Of a stretch of 64,000 nt of DNA, positions 9,001 through 62,900 are shown one piece after another. The stretch lies in contig OY740798.1 of NCBI GenBank assembly GCA_963514005.1, positions 20,584,001 to 20,648,000 of the forward strand, written 5' to 3'. Position numbers: made by a program. The stretch is from Raja brachyura (lineage: Eukaryota). Each line of letters opens with the position of its first letter. The stretch's first letter is position 1.

Positions 9001-11879
9001 AAAGTCAAGCTACCAGGCTGACTGCACCAGAAAATGACAACTGGATCACGAGTCAGAATCTTTCAACTTTGTTGTGTTACATTCTCCACTTTCTCTTTGG
9101 TGTGGTGACAAGGCAGAAATAGCAGCAAGTTCAACCTCAGTGTATTTGGGCTTGAGGTAGACACAGTTATAGTCAAACTCTTCATCCAACGTGAAAGGCT
9201 GAACTTCATCGGTCAATACCTGATGAAAAATAAAGTAGGTTTGATGCTGGCAAGTCCGATTGAAAACATGGCCATCTTGTAACATCACGTGTTATGTTGC
9301 AAAGTGGAAAATATAGATGCATGAACTAACATCAGCTGTGCTCTGTATTAACACTAAACAGTGCTGCTTAGTACTTACAGCAAAGATAAAATACATATAT
9401 GAAATCGCAAGTTGCTTAAAAGTCCTCCATGTTTTTTTACATTAGAGATTGAAACTTACCTGGAATCACACGAATGCGAAATGTCAACATATTTATGCCA
9501 ACTAGATCACTCATATTGTAATAGATAAGAGTGCAAACAAAATCAAAGACTGTTTCGTTCTCTTATTTTTCCTCTTACATTGTTAATTAGAAGAAACCAT
9601 CTGTTTTTAAAACTAAACTGTCAATGCGTAGCCAAGAAGTAAAATCTTTGGAAGATCTTGGGAATAAAGGATAACCGTTGGTCTACAAGAAAGCACACTA
9701 ACACCTCTACTTCCTGAGAAGGCTTAGAAAGCTCAGTATGTCCCCAACAACCCTCACCAACTTCTACAGATGCACGATAGAAAGCATTTTATCCGGATGC
9801 ATCACAGCATGGTTTGGGAACAGCTCCATTCAAAATTGCAAGGGTTTGGCGACGTAGCCCAGACCATCACACATACCAACCTCCTTTCCATTGACTCAAT
9901 CTACATTTCACTCTGATTTGGCAAGGCCACCAACATAATCATGGACCAGTCTCATCCTGTTCACTCCCTCTTTTCCCCTCTCCCATCAAGCAAGAGGTAC
10001 AGAAGTTTGAAAACACATCCCTCCAGATTCAGGGAGTTTCTAACCAGCTGTTATCAGGCAACTGAACCGTCATCTCACCAGAGCAGTCCTGACCTCCCAT
10101 CTACCTCATTGGAGTCCTTTGTATTATCTTTAATCAGACTTTATCTTGCACTAGACATCATACCCTTTACCCTGTATCTGTACACTGTGGACAGCTTGAC
10201 AAATGGCATGCAACAAAAAGTTTTTCACTGTACCTTGGTACCAATGACAATAACCAAACTAAACTAAAATAAGTATTTAGAACTTTGTGTACTCAGCCAA
10301 GTAAAAGTAAATGCATTTTGGATTTGAACAATATCCAAATATAACATCATAATAATCAACAATCACAAAAAAACATTATCTACAGGCAACAGCAATATTG
10401 TTACTTTGCAGCAGCCTAAAGTTTACAAAAAAATTCAAATATCCAACACAATCAGCATACCTGCTCATGTGCTTGGCTATTAAACTCTTCAACACCTGCA
10501 ACAACTTTGAAGTCAAGGGTTGTGTGCTTGTATTCACAATAAGAATAATTTGCAGGAATCTCTTCTTCTATTTTACCTGGGAGTATTTCTCCTCCTAGAT
10601 TAAATGGACAGTGACAGTAAATAACATGCTGATTATATTTACAAATATATAACCAACCAAATTTCGGCTATACTGATATTAAGATGGAAGTGAAAATATC
10701 CAACCAAATACAATTAAACGGTGTGCATTACTGGAATACAAGTATCACCTTATTTTGTTCATACCTTCTATGAAAGACAATTTCTTCATAAATAACTGAT
10801 TTTACGAAAACCTTTGAACACACAGTGATCACTATTTTGTGAGCATCATTACCGTACCATCAGAGGTTCAAATAAAATGCCCATTATCAAGTTTGCATAA
10901 TTAATGTGAAATGACTAGCAATACCCAGAAACCAAATATAGTTCCTTCCAATTATGAAAGTAAATAGCATATAGTTTTTAGGTTTATTTTTGAACTACCT
11001 AATATTCTTTCAATACTGCATTATGTCAATGATGCTCCCAATATTACATTATAATGTTAAGTCACGGAATTTTGTTGAATGAGTTTTACTGTCAAGATAC
11101 ACACGCCACAGAATGCTGCCAATTATATTTGCACCATTGCATCTCTCGTCAATATTTATCTCAGTTACTACTCTTTTATTAGTCTATAGAGCCTGTCCCA
11201 CGTAGGCGTCTTTTTAGGCGAGTGCAGGAGACTCTGCACTCGCCTCATAATCGCCACATGGTGCCACATGTTCGCTGGTCGTCTCTGGTGAGTCTCCTTC
11301 ATGGTTGCGAGGAGTTCCCGCAATCTGGGAACAAGTCGTGGCCTCAGTATGAACATGTTGAAAAAATGTCTGCGATCAAAAATTGGTCACTATTGAGAAA
11401 ATCGATACTTTTGTAGTCGTATGTGCAGTGGTAGTGGGGTCGCCATGTCGTTGTAGGTAGTCGAAGTAGCCGCAGGTAATTTTAGTTAATCTCCTTTGCT
11501 GACCAGGCATTTTCATTGGCTCATTGGCGGAAAAGAAAACGTAAGCACGAGTTTTCAGAACCAAGGAAAACCGACCAGTAATGTTAAATGCCCACTAAAC
11601 TTCACAGCTGTGTATCTCTGGCTTATTAAAAGTTGTCTGGCTTCTTGAAAGTGTCTCCACCCCTTCTGCCCCCCTTCTCCCCCTTCCCCGCTCTTTTAAA
11701 GAACTTACCTTACACTGTGTTAGCCGTCTTTAATCCTCCTGTTCATCGCGGTGTGTGTCTGTATCACTTTGGCTTTGCACCGTGTGAAATTCGGAGAGCG
11801 TTCCCCCGCCTTTGTGATGTGTTTGAGTGTGAGTGTGAGTGTGAGTGTGAGTGTGAGTGTGAGTGTGAGTGTGAGTGTG

Positions 11880-11910
<31 letters not shown>

Positions 11911-59900: not shown

Positions 59901-62900
59901 GCCCTGGCAACGGCGCGCCGTGACGCGGTGCCCGCCGTGAGATGGAGTCCATTCGGCCCGAAATTAAACTACAATTCCCATCAGGTACCGCGGCGCCCAC
60001 GTTCATTTGAATTGGGTCCGCCTGGGAAAATCAACCTTCAACTTAGTTCCCGAACCAAATGTAAGGAAGAGCGGGAAAAACCTAGGGTTTACACAAAAAG
60101 CTGGAGAAACTCAGCGGGTGCAGCAGCATCTAAGGAGCGAAGGAGATAGGCGACGTTTCGGGTCGAGACCCTTCTTCTAAAAACCTAGATCATTTTTAAA
60201 TCCCAATATTTTTATTTGCGTTCAAACCAATTTAAATAAAATAATAAGAATAGAAACCGCTGGAAGTCGACTTTGAACGTTCACCAGAAGTGCCATCTAG
60301 CTTATGGTGTATTTCTAGCATATATTATTATAATAATATTGCCTCCTGTTTCAATTATGCATCTCTAAACTAAACTAAACATAAATATTCAGCTCCAATT
60401 GGCTCCAGGTTAAGACAAAGTGATAACTGCAGATTAAGGGCAGACGCCACTCAACCTTTTCTCCTGATTAGTTTATCCAGCTTTCACAAATATTCATTTT
60501 CCAAACCATCCCACAATCAATTCGTTCCTTTGACCAACCCAACGTTAATTCTAATTACTCCCCTCCGAGGACCTACCTGAGGGCTGCTTTTTATAATTCA
60601 GTAACACATTTGGGAATGCCTAGCAATGATGTTCACTTCCACTTATTCCAGCCTTCACTGCTACCATGATTTTGAGGTCATAATCTCTATCTGATGCACA
60701 TGCAATCAATACTGCTCTCTAAAGATTGAAAATTCATTTGCATCTTTTCCCATCAATTTTACAAATAAAGAACAAATACTGAAAAACAGAAAAGAGTATC
60801 CCAAACTAGAATTCCAAAAACGTACAGTTGGCTGAATGGAGATTTATTGACACTGAATTGCTGTATCAAAATGAATTGCAATGATATTTTTTCTTTAAAT
60901 TAATGAATATAATGCTTTCATCAATAAACCATGAGGAAAGCATGAACCCCAAATAATTCTGTTTAAATATATGTTTTCTTAATCATTGGCTTATCATTAA
61001 AATAATGCTAAATGGCAGCAACTATGCAAATGGTCTTGTAGAATGGTCAGTTTTGCATCATCACAGTCTGTAATAAAATATACGTCTTGATTTTCTTTTC
61101 ATTTCTAACATAGTGTTACATTCAGTTTCCTTTCAAATGTCCAGCCAGCTATCGACTGCAACAATGTCCCTGCAAATGGTTTCAGAGAACAGCAGTACCA
61201 ACCTAATACAGCCAGGATTCTCCTTACTCAATTTTCATGGTGAAGTATTTCTTTTTGGTCAGAAAGGGTGGCCTAAACGATCCTGCAGCACAGGCATTTT
61301 TCTTCTTCATCTCAAGAACCATCTACTGAAACTTAAACCCGTTTCATTTTCATCGGAATCATGCTACCTTCCACCGCTGCGCCGGCCTGCAATAACCCAT
61401 TACTCGGATCCCTCAGAAACAGGAAGCCTTTATTATATCATTCACGGTGGGAGAACTCCGAATAGTGAAGTGCCTAATTCACTTTACGTCATGAGGGTTT
61501 ATGACAATACTGCCAAAAAGAGAACATCTCTTTGTTGCAGTGAAAAAAATCTAAAAGGAGATGTCCCCACAGGAAGATATGGCCACACCATCAATGTGAT
61601 TCAGAACAAAGGACAAACTATATGTGTCTTGTTTGGGGGTAGATCCTACCAGCCTCCTGGGCAAAGAACCACAGAAAACTGGAACAGCTTAGTCGATTGT
61701 TTGCCTGAGGTTTTTCTGATTGATATGAACACCGGCCATTGCACATCCCACATGCTACCAGAAATAGAAGAAGGCTTTTCATTCCATGTTGCTGTTGCAA
61801 AAAATGACACCATCTATATATTAGGTGGCCACTCCATCAAAGACAATCATCGCCCTGAAAGATTGCTTAGTCTAAAAGTAGATCTTTCAGGCATCCATCC
61901 CAGTGTTAAATGTACAGTACTGCATGGGGGTATCTCTGTATCAAGTGCAATAGTGACCCAAACTGGGAAAGATGAATTCATCATTGTTGGCGGCTATGAA
62001 TCTGAGAGCAAGAAACGAATCATTTGTAACACCATCGTTTTGGAGAATGATAGCATTCAGATATTGGAAAAAGATCCCCCAATGTGGACTAGTGATATAA
62101 ACACAAGCAAAACCTGGTTTGGCAGCGATATGGGAAGTGGTGCAGTGTTAATAGGAATTCCTGGAAATACAAAACAGGATACATCAGAAGCAAACTACTT
62201 CTATATAGCAAATTTGGGACAGCCAAAAGAAGAGAGCCAAATGTCTGCCAGCCAGGAATCCTTTACTGATCCTGAGGAATGCAGTGCATTTGAAGATTCA
62301 GAAGAATTTCACTTTGTAGTGGAACCAGATCCCTCTGAATATGTGGAAAACTTGAATGAAGGTGATGAAGAAGGATATTGGATAAAATGCAGTGCCAACT
62401 GCAATATGAATATCAAGATCTGGGTGCCCTATTATTCCACAGAACTCAATAAACCAGCAATGATCTTCTGTTCAAATGCAGATGATGATGGACACTGGGT
62501 ACATGCTCAGTGCATGAATCTCACGGAATCACAGCTAATCCAGTTTTCTCAGGAGAACATAAAGTACTTTTGCAATGAACACTTTATTGATAGAGAAATT
62601 AAAACTCCACCAAAGAAAAAGCAGATAAAGCGAACACCAATAAAATCCCCACGTAAGAAGTCACCAGCAACACTGAAAAGGACACCAATGAAGAAAAGCT
62701 TCCTGAAGAGACTGTTTGATTGAAATTGTAAAACTTATAACAAAAATATTGCATGCAGAAAATTATAAACAGTACAGGGTTCTGACTTTTAGCATATTCC
62801 AGACTTATTCCTGTGTTAAGATATCAGTCATGATTTTGTGGAATATAAATGCAGTAACCAGGCGGCCAAAGGCCATCTCTGGATTAGTTAATGTCATTTA

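What the first reader, a model, noticed from the sequence alone, without database searches (positions are those of the whole stretch)
9046..62723. Complete IFTAP/NWC gene lying antisense to, and probably overlapping, RAG2 in a cartilaginous-fish-type locus
Seen: five small minus-strand exons with canonical acceptors join in phase into a 213-aa IFTAP, and a strong minus-strand donor sits in a CpG island 1.3 kb upstream of the RAG2 ATG, giving a 32.5-kb first intron. Established: NWC/IFTAP is the host gene next to which the RAG transposon is proposed to have inserted, and its promoter lies in the RAG2 intron in mammals. Inference: this architecture is preserved here in what appears to be the earliest-diverging lineage with RAG-based immunity. 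The arrangement is known in other vertebrates, so the new content is this exact gene model.
[Added by the scan's program, not by the reader: the finding's places include an assembly gap (unread letters, written N; its length is only estimated) at 15546 to 15741. Whether the letters on both sides are continuous or in frame is not known: test that first.]
Basis: partly seen in the sequence, partly recalled or inferred. Interest (0 to 1): 0.7.

Follow-up and report, generated by a model that had tools for sequence, protein, structure and literature searches.

The report
Skate IFTAP gene beside RAG2
An intact copy of the cilia-associated gene IFTAP (also called NWC) sits head-to-head with the immune recombinase gene RAG2 in a skate genome, the arrangement already described in other vertebrates, so this is a sound but ordinary gene model.

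Summary
Five minus-strand coding exons (27341-27197, 23780-23644, 17921-17855, 10594-10461, 9219-9046) add up by arithmetic to 639 nt, or 213 codons, with matching phases. Searched exon by exon, they cover all 213 residues of Leucoraja erinacea IFTAP isoform X2, with 191 of 211 whole-codon residues identical. All five acceptors are AG. One donor, after 23644, is GC rather than GT.

The assembly gap (15546-15741) lies inside the intron between 17855 and 10594, and no reading frame crosses it.

The proposed non-coding first exon ending at 59864 has comparative support. The N-terminal extension of a sawfish IFTAP-like model aligns to 59959-59864 and stops exactly at that donor, then resumes at 27344. 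None of 200 shuffles reached its score. The only ACTACANNTCCCR (ZNF143-type) motif in the window lies at 59968-59980.

RAG2 (519 aa, ATG 61164) is 96% identical to Amblyraja radiata RAG2.

The overlap with RAG2 transcripts, the transcription start site and use of the GC donor were not shown, because no RNA data were available. The architecture is already published for other vertebrates, so interest is low.

The parts
59864..59959 (-). IFTAP exon 1 (non-coding), the minimum extent supported by homology. The 5' end (TSS) is undetermined. Weaker homology to the sawfish model continues to 60077.
   Evidence: P0004 residues 65-96 align to 59959..59864 at 69% identity and 43.1 bits, and 0 of 200 shuffles reach that score. 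The frame has no ATG and a stop lies just upstream.
59858..59863 (-). Donor of intron 1: CGA|gtgagt.
   Evidence: The sawfish alignment ends exactly at 59864 and resumes at exon 2.
59968..59980 (+). ZNF143/ZFP143-type core motif ACTACANNTCCCR.
   Evidence: It is the only match in the 64-kb window, where 0.05 is expected and 5 of 100 shuffles gave at least 1. The full 26-nt consensus is not matched within 3 mismatches.
59401..60200 (.). CpG-rich segment holding exon 1 and the presumed promoter.
   Evidence: GC 0.52, CpG o/e 0.87, 47 CpG. It is one of 16 such segments in the window. Only 60090-60177 is repeated elsewhere in the window.
27342..59863 (-). Intron 1 (32,522 nt), rich in retroelement remnants.
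   Evidence: Pfam RVT_1, Phage_int_SAM_4, RT_RNaseH and zf-RVT domains in its ORFs.
27197..27341 (-). Exon 2, the first coding exon. ATG at 27326, with a second in-frame ATG at 27299. Donor AAG|gtaagc, phase 1.
   Evidence: PF17722 at 51.8 bits. 40 of 43 residues identical to Leucoraja. Sequence read.
23644..23780 (-). Exon 3, with GC donor GAG|gcatgt, phase 0.
   Evidence: 36 of 45 residues identical to Leucoraja residues 45-89. No Pfam hit at E <= 10. Sequence read.
17855..17921 (-). Exon 4, donor CTG|gtaggt, phase 1.
   Evidence: 20 of 22 residues identical. PF17722 at E 0.0087, below the cut-off.
15546..15741 (.). Assembly gap inside the intron between exons 4 and 5.
   Evidence: It abuts a 12-bp minisatellite at 15742-15918. 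Both flanks match one inverted repeat copy at 16303-16818, in order.
10461..10594 (-). Exon 5, donor CAG|gtatgc, phase 0.
   Evidence: 42 of 44 residues identical. No Pfam hit at E <= 10. Sequence read.
9046..9219 (-). Coding part of exon 6, ending in TGA at 9048-9046. The 3' UTR runs on to lower coordinates.
   Evidence: PF17722 at 54.0 bits. 53 of 57 residues identical. AATAAA lies 126, 135 and 275 nt after the stop.
61113..62723 (+). RAG2 coding exon. The ortholog-supported ATG is at 61164 (519 aa). AG acceptors lie just upstream.
   Evidence: ORF found. Pfam RAG2 at 490 bits plus RAG2_PHD at 131 bits. 96% identity and 100% coverage to Amblyraja radiata RAG2. Sequence read.

Best explanation
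The window comes from a skate (Rajidae-like) chromosome; it is not human. It carries an intact IFTAP/NWC gene on the minus strand, head-to-head with RAG2 on the plus strand.

Gene structure. IFTAP has one non-coding exon and five coding exons that give a 213-aa protein. The non-coding exon ends at 59864, in a CpG-rich, ZNF143-motif-bearing promoter region about 1.25 kb upstream of the RAG2 coding exon.

Protein function (from the literature, not tested here). IFTAP is a small acidic protein that associates with the IFT-A intraflagellar-transport complex.

Transcription (inferred). IFTAP is most likely transcribed from the CpG-island promoter away from RAG2, with a 32.5-kb retroelement-filled first intron spliced out.

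Regulation (by analogy with mouse, not shown here). The RAG2 lymphoid promoter would lie further upstream, inside that IFTAP intron. RAG2 and IFTAP primary transcripts would then overlap in antisense, and RAG2 transcription through the IFTAP promoter would silence it in lymphocytes.

Shown here: the coding model, its orthology, the position and homology of exon 1, the motif, and RAG2 itself. Inferred: the TSS, promoter activity, use of the GC donor, the overlap and the regulation.
For: - Coding exons: 7 of 7 elasmobranch IFTAP proteins hit all five exons.
- Exon-by-exon identity to Leucoraja IFTAP X2 is 40/43, 36/45, 20/22, 42/44 and 53/57. The pieces cover residues 1-43, 45-89, 90-111, 113-156 and 157-212.
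- Residues 44 and 112 are the two split codons, G|AT and G|GA read. Both agree with P0001.
- The arithmetic gives 639 nt = 213 codons.
- Pfam PF17722 is above its cut-off for exons 2 and 6 taken alone.
- Exon 1: Pristis model P0004 residues 65-96 align to 59959..59864, and residues 96-144 to 27344..27198. None of 200 shuffles reached 43.1 bits; the highest was 26.9.
- A single ACTACANNTCCCR site lies at 59968-59980, where 0.05 is expected.
- The surrounding segment has CpG o/e 0.87, and exon 1 is not repeated elsewhere in the window.
- RAG2.
- Mouse architecture and ZFP143 dependence: PMC3439442 and PMC4157847 (passages).
- IFT-A interaction: PMC10356136 (passage).
Against: - No RNA evidence of any kind was available, so the TSS, splice-site use and overlap are unproven.
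- Exon 1 rests on one computational model from one other species. Only 1 of the 7 retrieved proteins has such an extension.
- The full 26-nt ZFP143 consensus has 0 matches within 3 mismatches.
- The second, inverted site is only a TTCCCA core (60023-60028, minus strand), a hexamer that occurs 69 times in the window.
- Strong donor hexamers (18) and CpG-rich segments (16) are common in the window.
- Exons 3 and 5 give no Pfam hit at E <= 10.
- Exon 3 needs a GC donor.
- The promoter lies about 1.1-1.25 kb from the RAG2 coding exon, against 313 nt in mouse.
Confidence: 0.8

Rival explanations
1. The genes are head-to-head neighbours that do not overlap. RAG2 transcripts would start between the IFTAP promoter and the RAG2 coding exon (about 60.0-61.1 kb), or from the shared promoter only, so IFTAP exon 1 would not lie inside a RAG2 intron.
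For: The RAG2 coding exon is preceded by AG acceptors and a pyrimidine tract at about 61085-61124. A 5' exon therefore exists somewhere upstream, but nothing in the window places it beyond 59864. The spacer here is about 1.25 kb, against 313 nt in mouse, which leaves room for one. In mouse the NWC promoter itself drives some RAG-2 transcription (PMC3439442).
Against: PMC3439442 states that the location of NWC exon 1 in the RAG-2 intron is conserved among vertebrates (passage). No cartilaginous fish is named in the passages I read.
Confidence: 0.3
2. IFTAP transcription mainly starts just upstream of the first coding exon (about 27.4 kb), and the 59.9-kb exon is minor or unused.
For: In mouse a second, roughly tenfold weaker NWC promoter lies downstream of exon 1 (PMC3439442, passage). 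Six of the 7 retrieved elasmobranch proteins carry no sequence from an upstream exon. This is also what a non-coding exon 1 would give.
Against: The coding exon begins at a strong acceptor (ttttttccatttcag|G) 15 nt before the ATG. No CpG-rich segment lies at 27.4-29.4 kb. The sawfish model joins the 59.9-kb homologue directly to this exon.
Confidence: 0.1
3. The 59.9-kb exon is coding and gives an N-terminally extended IFTAP, like the 314-aa sawfish model.
For: Exon 1 ends in phase 0 and is in frame with exon 2. Translated identity to the sawfish extension is 69% over 32 residues.
Against: The open frame 59816-59968 has no ATG and is closed by a stop just upstream. The further sawfish matches fall in other frames, and one contains a stop.
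Confidence: 0.03

Closest known systems
Leucoraja erinacea intraflagellar transport-associated protein isoform X2 (P0001, 213 aa, NCBI model)
   Same: It has the same length by arithmetic (213 codons) and the same five-piece layout. 191 of 211 whole-codon residues are identical, both split codons agree, and every residue is accounted for.
   Different: About 9% of residues differ, most of them in exon 3 (9 of 45). The window is therefore a different skate species. I could not see that record's genomic exon structure.
Mouse NWC / RAG-2 locus (PMC3439442, PMC4157847)
   Same: NWC/IFTAP lies on the strand opposite to RAG2. It has a non-coding first exon in a CpG-rich, TATA-less-type region just upstream of the RAG2 coding exon, and a ZFP143-type motif is present.
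   Different: The spacer to the RAG2 coding exon is about 1.1-1.25 kb, against 313 nt in mouse. Only one good ZFP143 half-site is present rather than two full inverted sites. Bidirectional activity, Ikaros binding, methylation and the RAG2 upstream exon are untested here.
Pristis pectinata IFTAP-like model (P0004, 314 aa)
   Same: Its 5' exon is homologous to window 59864-60077 and joins the first coding exon at the same position and phase.
   Different: In the sawfish model that exon is read as coding. In the window the frame has no ATG, a stop, and frame changes, so it is non-coding.

Membership tests
IFTAP / NWC / C11orf74 (Pfam PF17722) | Match to the PF17722 profile above its gathering score | tested here: met
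   Exon 2 alone scores 51.8 bits and exon 6 alone 54.0 bits, against a cut-off of 29.3. Exon 4 scores 16.4 bits (E 0.0087). Exons 3 and 5 give no hit at E <= 10. So 3 of 5 exons hit and 2 of 5 exceed the cut-off. The joined peptide was not searched.
IFTAP / NWC / C11orf74 (Pfam PF17722) | Collinear, full-length agreement with annotated orthologues | tested here: met
   7 of 7 elasmobranch IFTAP proteins hit all five exons in order. 191 of 211 residues are identical to Leucoraja X2.
IFTAP / NWC / C11orf74 (Pfam PF17722) | Three strongly conserved domains separated by variable linkers (PMC6283527, abstract and introduction passages) | tested here: met
   The Pfam-matching pieces are exons 2, 4 and 6 (profile positions 5-44, 123-141 and 191-233). 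Exons 3 and 5 are conserved only among elasmobranchs.
IFTAP / NWC / C11orf74 (Pfam PF17722) | Binding to the IFT-A complex | not testable with these tools
   Known only from the literature (PMC10356136, passage).
Vertebrate RAG2/NWC head-to-head locus | NWC next to RAG2 on the opposite strand, with 5' ends facing | tested here: met
   The IFTAP coding exons lie at 27341-9046 on the minus strand and RAG2 at 61164-62723 on the plus strand.
Vertebrate RAG2/NWC head-to-head locus | Non-coding NWC exon 1 and a CpG-island promoter close to the RAG2 coding exon | tested here: met
   Homology to the 5' exon of the sawfish model ends at the 59864 donor. CpG o/e is 0.87. The frame has no ATG. The TSS itself is not determined.
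Vertebrate RAG2/NWC head-to-head locus | NWC exon 1 lies inside a RAG2 intron, so that the transcripts overlap | not testable with these tools
   No RNA data and no vertebrate genome collection were available. The RAG2 5' exon cannot be located from sequence alone.
Vertebrate RAG2/NWC head-to-head locus | Two inverted ZFP143 sites 40-50 bp apart (consensus RRACTACANNTCCCRNNNNNCNNGCG, PMC3439442) | tested here: inconclusive
   The 13-nt core matches once, at 59968-59980. The full consensus gives 0 matches within 3 mismatches. An inverted TTCCCA lies at 60023-60028, but this hexamer occurs 69 times in the window.
Vertebrate RAG2/NWC head-to-head locus | Bidirectional promoter activity and lymphocyte-specific methylation | not testable with these tools
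   These need reporter assays and bisulfite sequencing.
RAG2 | RAG2 kelch-type core plus C-terminal PHD finger in one uninterrupted coding exon | tested here: met
   PF03089 at 490 bits and PF13341 at 131 bits. The ORF is uninterrupted. 96% identity and 100% coverage to the 519-aa Amblyraja radiata RAG2.
RAG2 | RAG1 as the convergent neighbour downstream | not testable with these tools
   The window ends 1,277 nt after the RAG2 stop codon.
GC-AG intron (intron after exon 3) | GC donor with otherwise strong consensus, and an AG acceptor | tested here: met
   The donor reads GAG|gcatgt and the acceptor ttgtctttaatgcatttaag|G. Only this junction keeps phase 0 and reproduces the Leucoraja ...DE|ED... 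join. Actual use in RNA was not tested.

The most novel reading that the evidence does not exclude
The mammalian-type RAG2/NWC arrangement would already have been present in the common ancestor of cartilaginous and bony vertebrates. That arrangement is a non-coding IFTAP exon 1 in a ZNF143-type CpG promoter, lying between the RAG2 promoter and the RAG2 coding exon, with IFTAP transcription running antisense through the whole RAG2 upstream region.

The non-coding exon/promoter block is conserved between a skate and a sawfish (69% over 32 translated positions) although it cannot code in the skate. This would mark a constrained regulatory element of the proposed host gene of the RAG transposon.

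In the papers I could search, no cartilaginous fish was named in the NWC promoter comparisons. The 2018 Dev Comp Immunol paper on this question was not held.
Probability: 0.55. Interest if true: 0.35.

Novelty: already known. Interest (0 to 1): 0.2.

Why it matters
NWC/IFTAP is the proposed host gene beside which the RAG transposon settled. Its bidirectional CpG promoter has been argued to have sheltered the incoming transposon (PMC3439442, PMC4157847).

Showing the same layout in a skate extends the sampled range to cartilaginous fish and gives exact coordinates for RACE, CAGE and reporter tests. It does not change the picture. The gene, its 213-aa form in a sister genus, and the locus architecture are already on record.

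Tried and rejected
- Pfam on whole 9-10-kb reading frames failed because of stop codons. I replaced this with stop-free ORFs and then exact exon pieces.
- The listing of cluster members, meant to show the other members of the Leucoraja cluster and whether this species' own model is on record, could not be made because the shared database was off. That question stays open.
- A second homologue search with the first coding exon returned only P0001, 1 of 1 candidates, so no further N-terminally extended models were found.
- Extra exons of longer isoforms were not found in the window. These are the Mobula insert, the Pristiophorus X2 insert and the Hemitrygon/Mobula ...YE.EVEKC... stretch. The best matches had E >= 0.5 or fell outside the gene's exon order.
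- The full ZFP143 consensus gave 0 matches.
- CpG richness and donor strength were rejected as stand-alone evidence: there are 16 such segments and 18 GTRAGT sites.
- Within-window repeat masking covers only 15% of the window and leaves most CpG-rich segments unclassified.
- The Rfam gathering scan gave 0 hits.
- A coding exon 1 was rejected: no ATG, and a stop just upstream.
- Sniezewski et al. 2018 (PMID 29175053) is not held. It may already cover cartilaginous fish.
- The search 'NWC, RAG, shark' listed 12 papers, none on NWC in sharks judging by title and abstract.
- The joined 213-aa peptide was not built, printed or searched. All searches were exon by exon.
- No DNA-level comparison with other elasmobranch genomes was possible.

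
Full report
GAP FIRST. The only run of N is 15546-15741.
- It lies 2,309 nt past the donor of the exon ending at 17855 and 4,951 nt before the acceptor of the exon starting at 10594. 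It is therefore inside an intron, and no coding frame crosses it.
- The long ORFs that the ORF listing draws across it (15411-15938 plus, 15526-16176 minus) consist of X plus a translated 12-bp minisatellite (15742-15918, 14.8 copies).
- Both flanks belong to one repeat element. The left flank (15199-15545) and the right flank (15816-15982) match, in the same relative order and orientation, an inverted copy at 16303-16818: left flank to 16446-16818, right flank to 16303-16438. This fits collinear flanks.
- I did not infer the hidden letters.
- Every residue of the closest orthologue is accounted for outside the gap (see below), so no exon of that isoform is missing. Intron length (7,260 nt) and gene span depend on the estimated gap size.

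THE CODING MODEL. Stop-to-stop ORFs on the minus strand gave Pfam IFTAP (PF17722) hits for three of them. The last-exon peptide retrieved 7 elasmobranch IFTAP proteins out of 18 candidates. The best was Leucoraja erinacea isoform X2 (P0001, 213 aa). tblastn of these proteins against the window found five pieces in order, and 7 of 7 proteins hit all five at E <= 0.007.

Reading the junctions gives these exons:

| Exon | Coordinates | Notes |
|---|---|---|
| 2 | 27341-27197 | ATG at 27326 |
| 3 | 23780-23644 | GC donor |
| 4 | 17921-17855 | |
| 5 | 10594-10461 | |
| 6 | 9219-9046 | TGA at 9048-9046 |

- The CDS pieces are 130+137+67+134+171 = 639 nt = 213 codons, with phases 0/1/0/1/0.
- All five acceptors are AG behind pyrimidine tracts.
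- The donors are AAG|gtaagc, GAG|gcatgt, CTG|gtaggt and CAG|gtatgc. The donor after exon 3 is thus GC, not GT. Only that junction keeps the frame and reproduces the orthologue's ...DE|ED... join.
- Exon-by-exon identity to P0001 is 40/43, 36/45, 20/22, 42/44 and 53/57, or 191 of 211. The pieces cover residues 1-43, 45-89, 90-111, 113-156 and 157-212. Residues 44 and 112 are the split codons, and both agree with P0001.
- Pfam on the exact exon pieces gives exon 2 at 51.8 bits, exon 6 at 54.0 bits (cut-off 29.3), exon 4 at 16.4 bits, and nothing for exons 3 and 5 at E <= 10. This matches the published description of three conserved domains (PMC6283527, abstract and introduction passages).
The 213-aa figure is arithmetic plus exon-wise comparison.

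THE FIRST EXON. That is 1,300 nt before the RAG2 ATG (61164), and the intron is 32,522 nt.

The donor and the CpG richness around it are not remarkable on their own:
- 18 minus-strand GTRAGT sites lie between 27342 and 61112.
- 16 window segments meet GC >= 0.5 and CpG o/e >= 0.6. The segment 59401-60200 has o/e 0.87 and 47 CpG.

The decisive evidence is comparative:
- One of the 7 retrieved proteins, the Pristis pectinata 'IFTAP-like' model (P0004, 314 aa), has an N-terminal extension.
- Its residues 65-96 align to 59959..59864 (69% identity, 43.1 bits) and stop exactly at the predicted exon end.
- Residues 96-144 continue at 27344..27198.
- Residues 31-57 and 18-29 align further up, at 60039..59959 and 60077..60042, in other frames.
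- None of 200 shuffles of that N-terminus reached 43.1 bits; the maximum was 26.9. With default composition-corrected statistics E is 1.3e-8.
- In the window this frame (59816-59968) has no ATG and is closed by a stop, so the exon is non-coding here.
- The segment is not repeated elsewhere in the window, except for a short interspersed repeat at 60090-60177.

PROMOTER MOTIF. PMC3439442 (passages) gives the ZFP143 consensus RRACTACANNTCCCRNNNNNCNNGCG. It reports two inverted copies 40-50 bp apart in the NWC promoters of mammals, Xenopus and Latimeria.
- The core ACTACANNTCCCR occurs once in the 64-kb window, at 59968-59980, about 105-115 nt upstream of the exon 1 donor in the IFTAP sense. The expected count is 0.05, and 5 of 100 shuffles had a match.
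- The full consensus has no match within 3 mismatches.
- The inverted partner is only a TTCCCA core at 60023-60028, a hexamer found 69 times in the window.
- The 'two inverted sites' feature is therefore inconclusive.

RAG2 AND THE ORGANISM. The plus-strand ORF 61113-62723 matches Pfam RAG2 (490 bits) and RAG2_PHD (131 bits). From the ATG at 61164 it is 519 aa.
- Identity to other RAG2 proteins, all at 100% coverage: Amblyraja radiata 96%, Mobula 85%, Narcine 83%, Heptranchias 82%, Callorhinchus 69%, Latimeria 57%.
- With IFTAP about 91% identical to Leucoraja, the window is a skate, but matches neither of those two records exactly. It is not human.
- AG acceptors and a pyrimidine tract directly precede the ORF. 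RAG2 therefore has at least one upstream non-coding exon, whose position is unknown.

HOW IT MOST LIKELY WORKS.
- Shown: an intact IFTAP gene of one non-coding and five coding exons, head-to-head with RAG2.
- From the literature: IFTAP/C11orf74 interacts with IFT-A and affects BBSome localisation (PMC10356136, passage). Mouse NWC is transcribed from a CpG-island, ZFP143-dependent bidirectional promoter lying in the RAG-2 intron 313 nt from the coding exon. That promoter is silenced in lymphocytes by Ikaros and by antisense RAG-2 transcription (PMC3439442 and PMC4157847, passages).
- Inferred for the skate: the same promoter logic, with the RAG2 promoter lying inside the 32.5-kb IFTAP intron 1, so that the two primary transcripts overlap.
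- That intron holds retroelement remnants: RVT_1, a tyrosine-recombinase-type SAM domain, RT_RNaseH and zf-RVT.
- The overlap is the weakest link. I give it about 0.6 and the non-overlapping divergent arrangement about 0.3.

COMPARISON AND NOVELTY.
- PMC3439442 states that the location of NWC exon 1 is conserved among vertebrates.
- The 213-aa form is annotated in a sister genus.
- The passages I read name mammals, Xenopus and Latimeria, and no cartilaginous fish.
- A search for 'NWC, RAG, shark' gave 12 papers, none relevant by title or abstract.
- The most pertinent paper (PMID 29175053) is not held.
- Whether this species' own model is already on record could not be checked.

The finding is a correct annotation of a known gene in a known arrangement. 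The small additions are the exact coordinates, the GC donor, and the skate/sawfish conservation of the non-coding exon. No vertebrate genome or RNA collection was available. Figures and supplementary files, which could bear on the promoter comparison, could not be seen.

Noticed in passing
window 27338-27282 (minus strand): An out-of-frame ATG at 27338, just inside IFTAP exon 2, opens an 18-codon ORF. This ORF overlaps both candidate IFTAP start codons (27326 and 27299) and may damp translation. Sharks in the retrieved set start at the equivalent of the second ATG.
   Followed up: no
window 61137-61139 (plus strand): There is an in-frame ATG 27 nt upstream of the ortholog-supported RAG2 start (61164), inside the same exon. 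Orthologues are 519 aa and align from 61164.
   Followed up: partly
window 33350-36898 (plus strand): Retroelement remnant in IFTAP intron 1, with reverse transcriptase (RVT_1, 34251-35582) followed by a tyrosine-recombinase-type N-terminal SAM-like domain (36230-36895). That pairing is, from recall, DIRS-like.
   Followed up: partly
window 39986-40453 (minus), 46476-47012 (plus), 49761-50264 (minus), 5481-6095 (plus): Further retroelement fragments: RT_RNaseH, zf-RVT, an ALKBH8_N-type match and RVT_1.
   Followed up: partly
window 42777-43763 and 51335-51895 (plus strand): Two ORFs with visibly similar cysteine-rich C-terminal halves and no Pfam hit at E <= 0.001. They are probably copies of one repeat family; from recall they resemble the endonuclease end of Penelope-like elements.
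   Followed up: no
window 60090-60177: Short interspersed repeat at the edge of the IFTAP promoter region. Five other copies lie in the window (12265-12353, 31326-31411, 43880-43938, 44113-44153, 52087-52172) at 79-88% identity.
   Followed up: partly
window 15199-15982 and 16303-16818: Inverted pair of one repeat element carrying a 12-bp minisatellite. The assembly gap sits at the start of the longer array.
   Followed up: yes
window 59775-59789: A run of 15 G inside the CpG-rich promoter segment. It may be a sequencing-error-prone homopolymer or a G-rich element.
   Followed up: no
window 8919, 8910, 8770 (minus strand): AATAAA signals lie 126, 135 and 275 nt after the IFTAP stop codon, so the gene probably ends about 150-300 nt beyond the finding's left edge.
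   Followed up: no
window ~11767-11946: Dinucleotide microsatellite that reads as long HT/HS/TL repeats in all three minus-strand frames.
   Followed up: no
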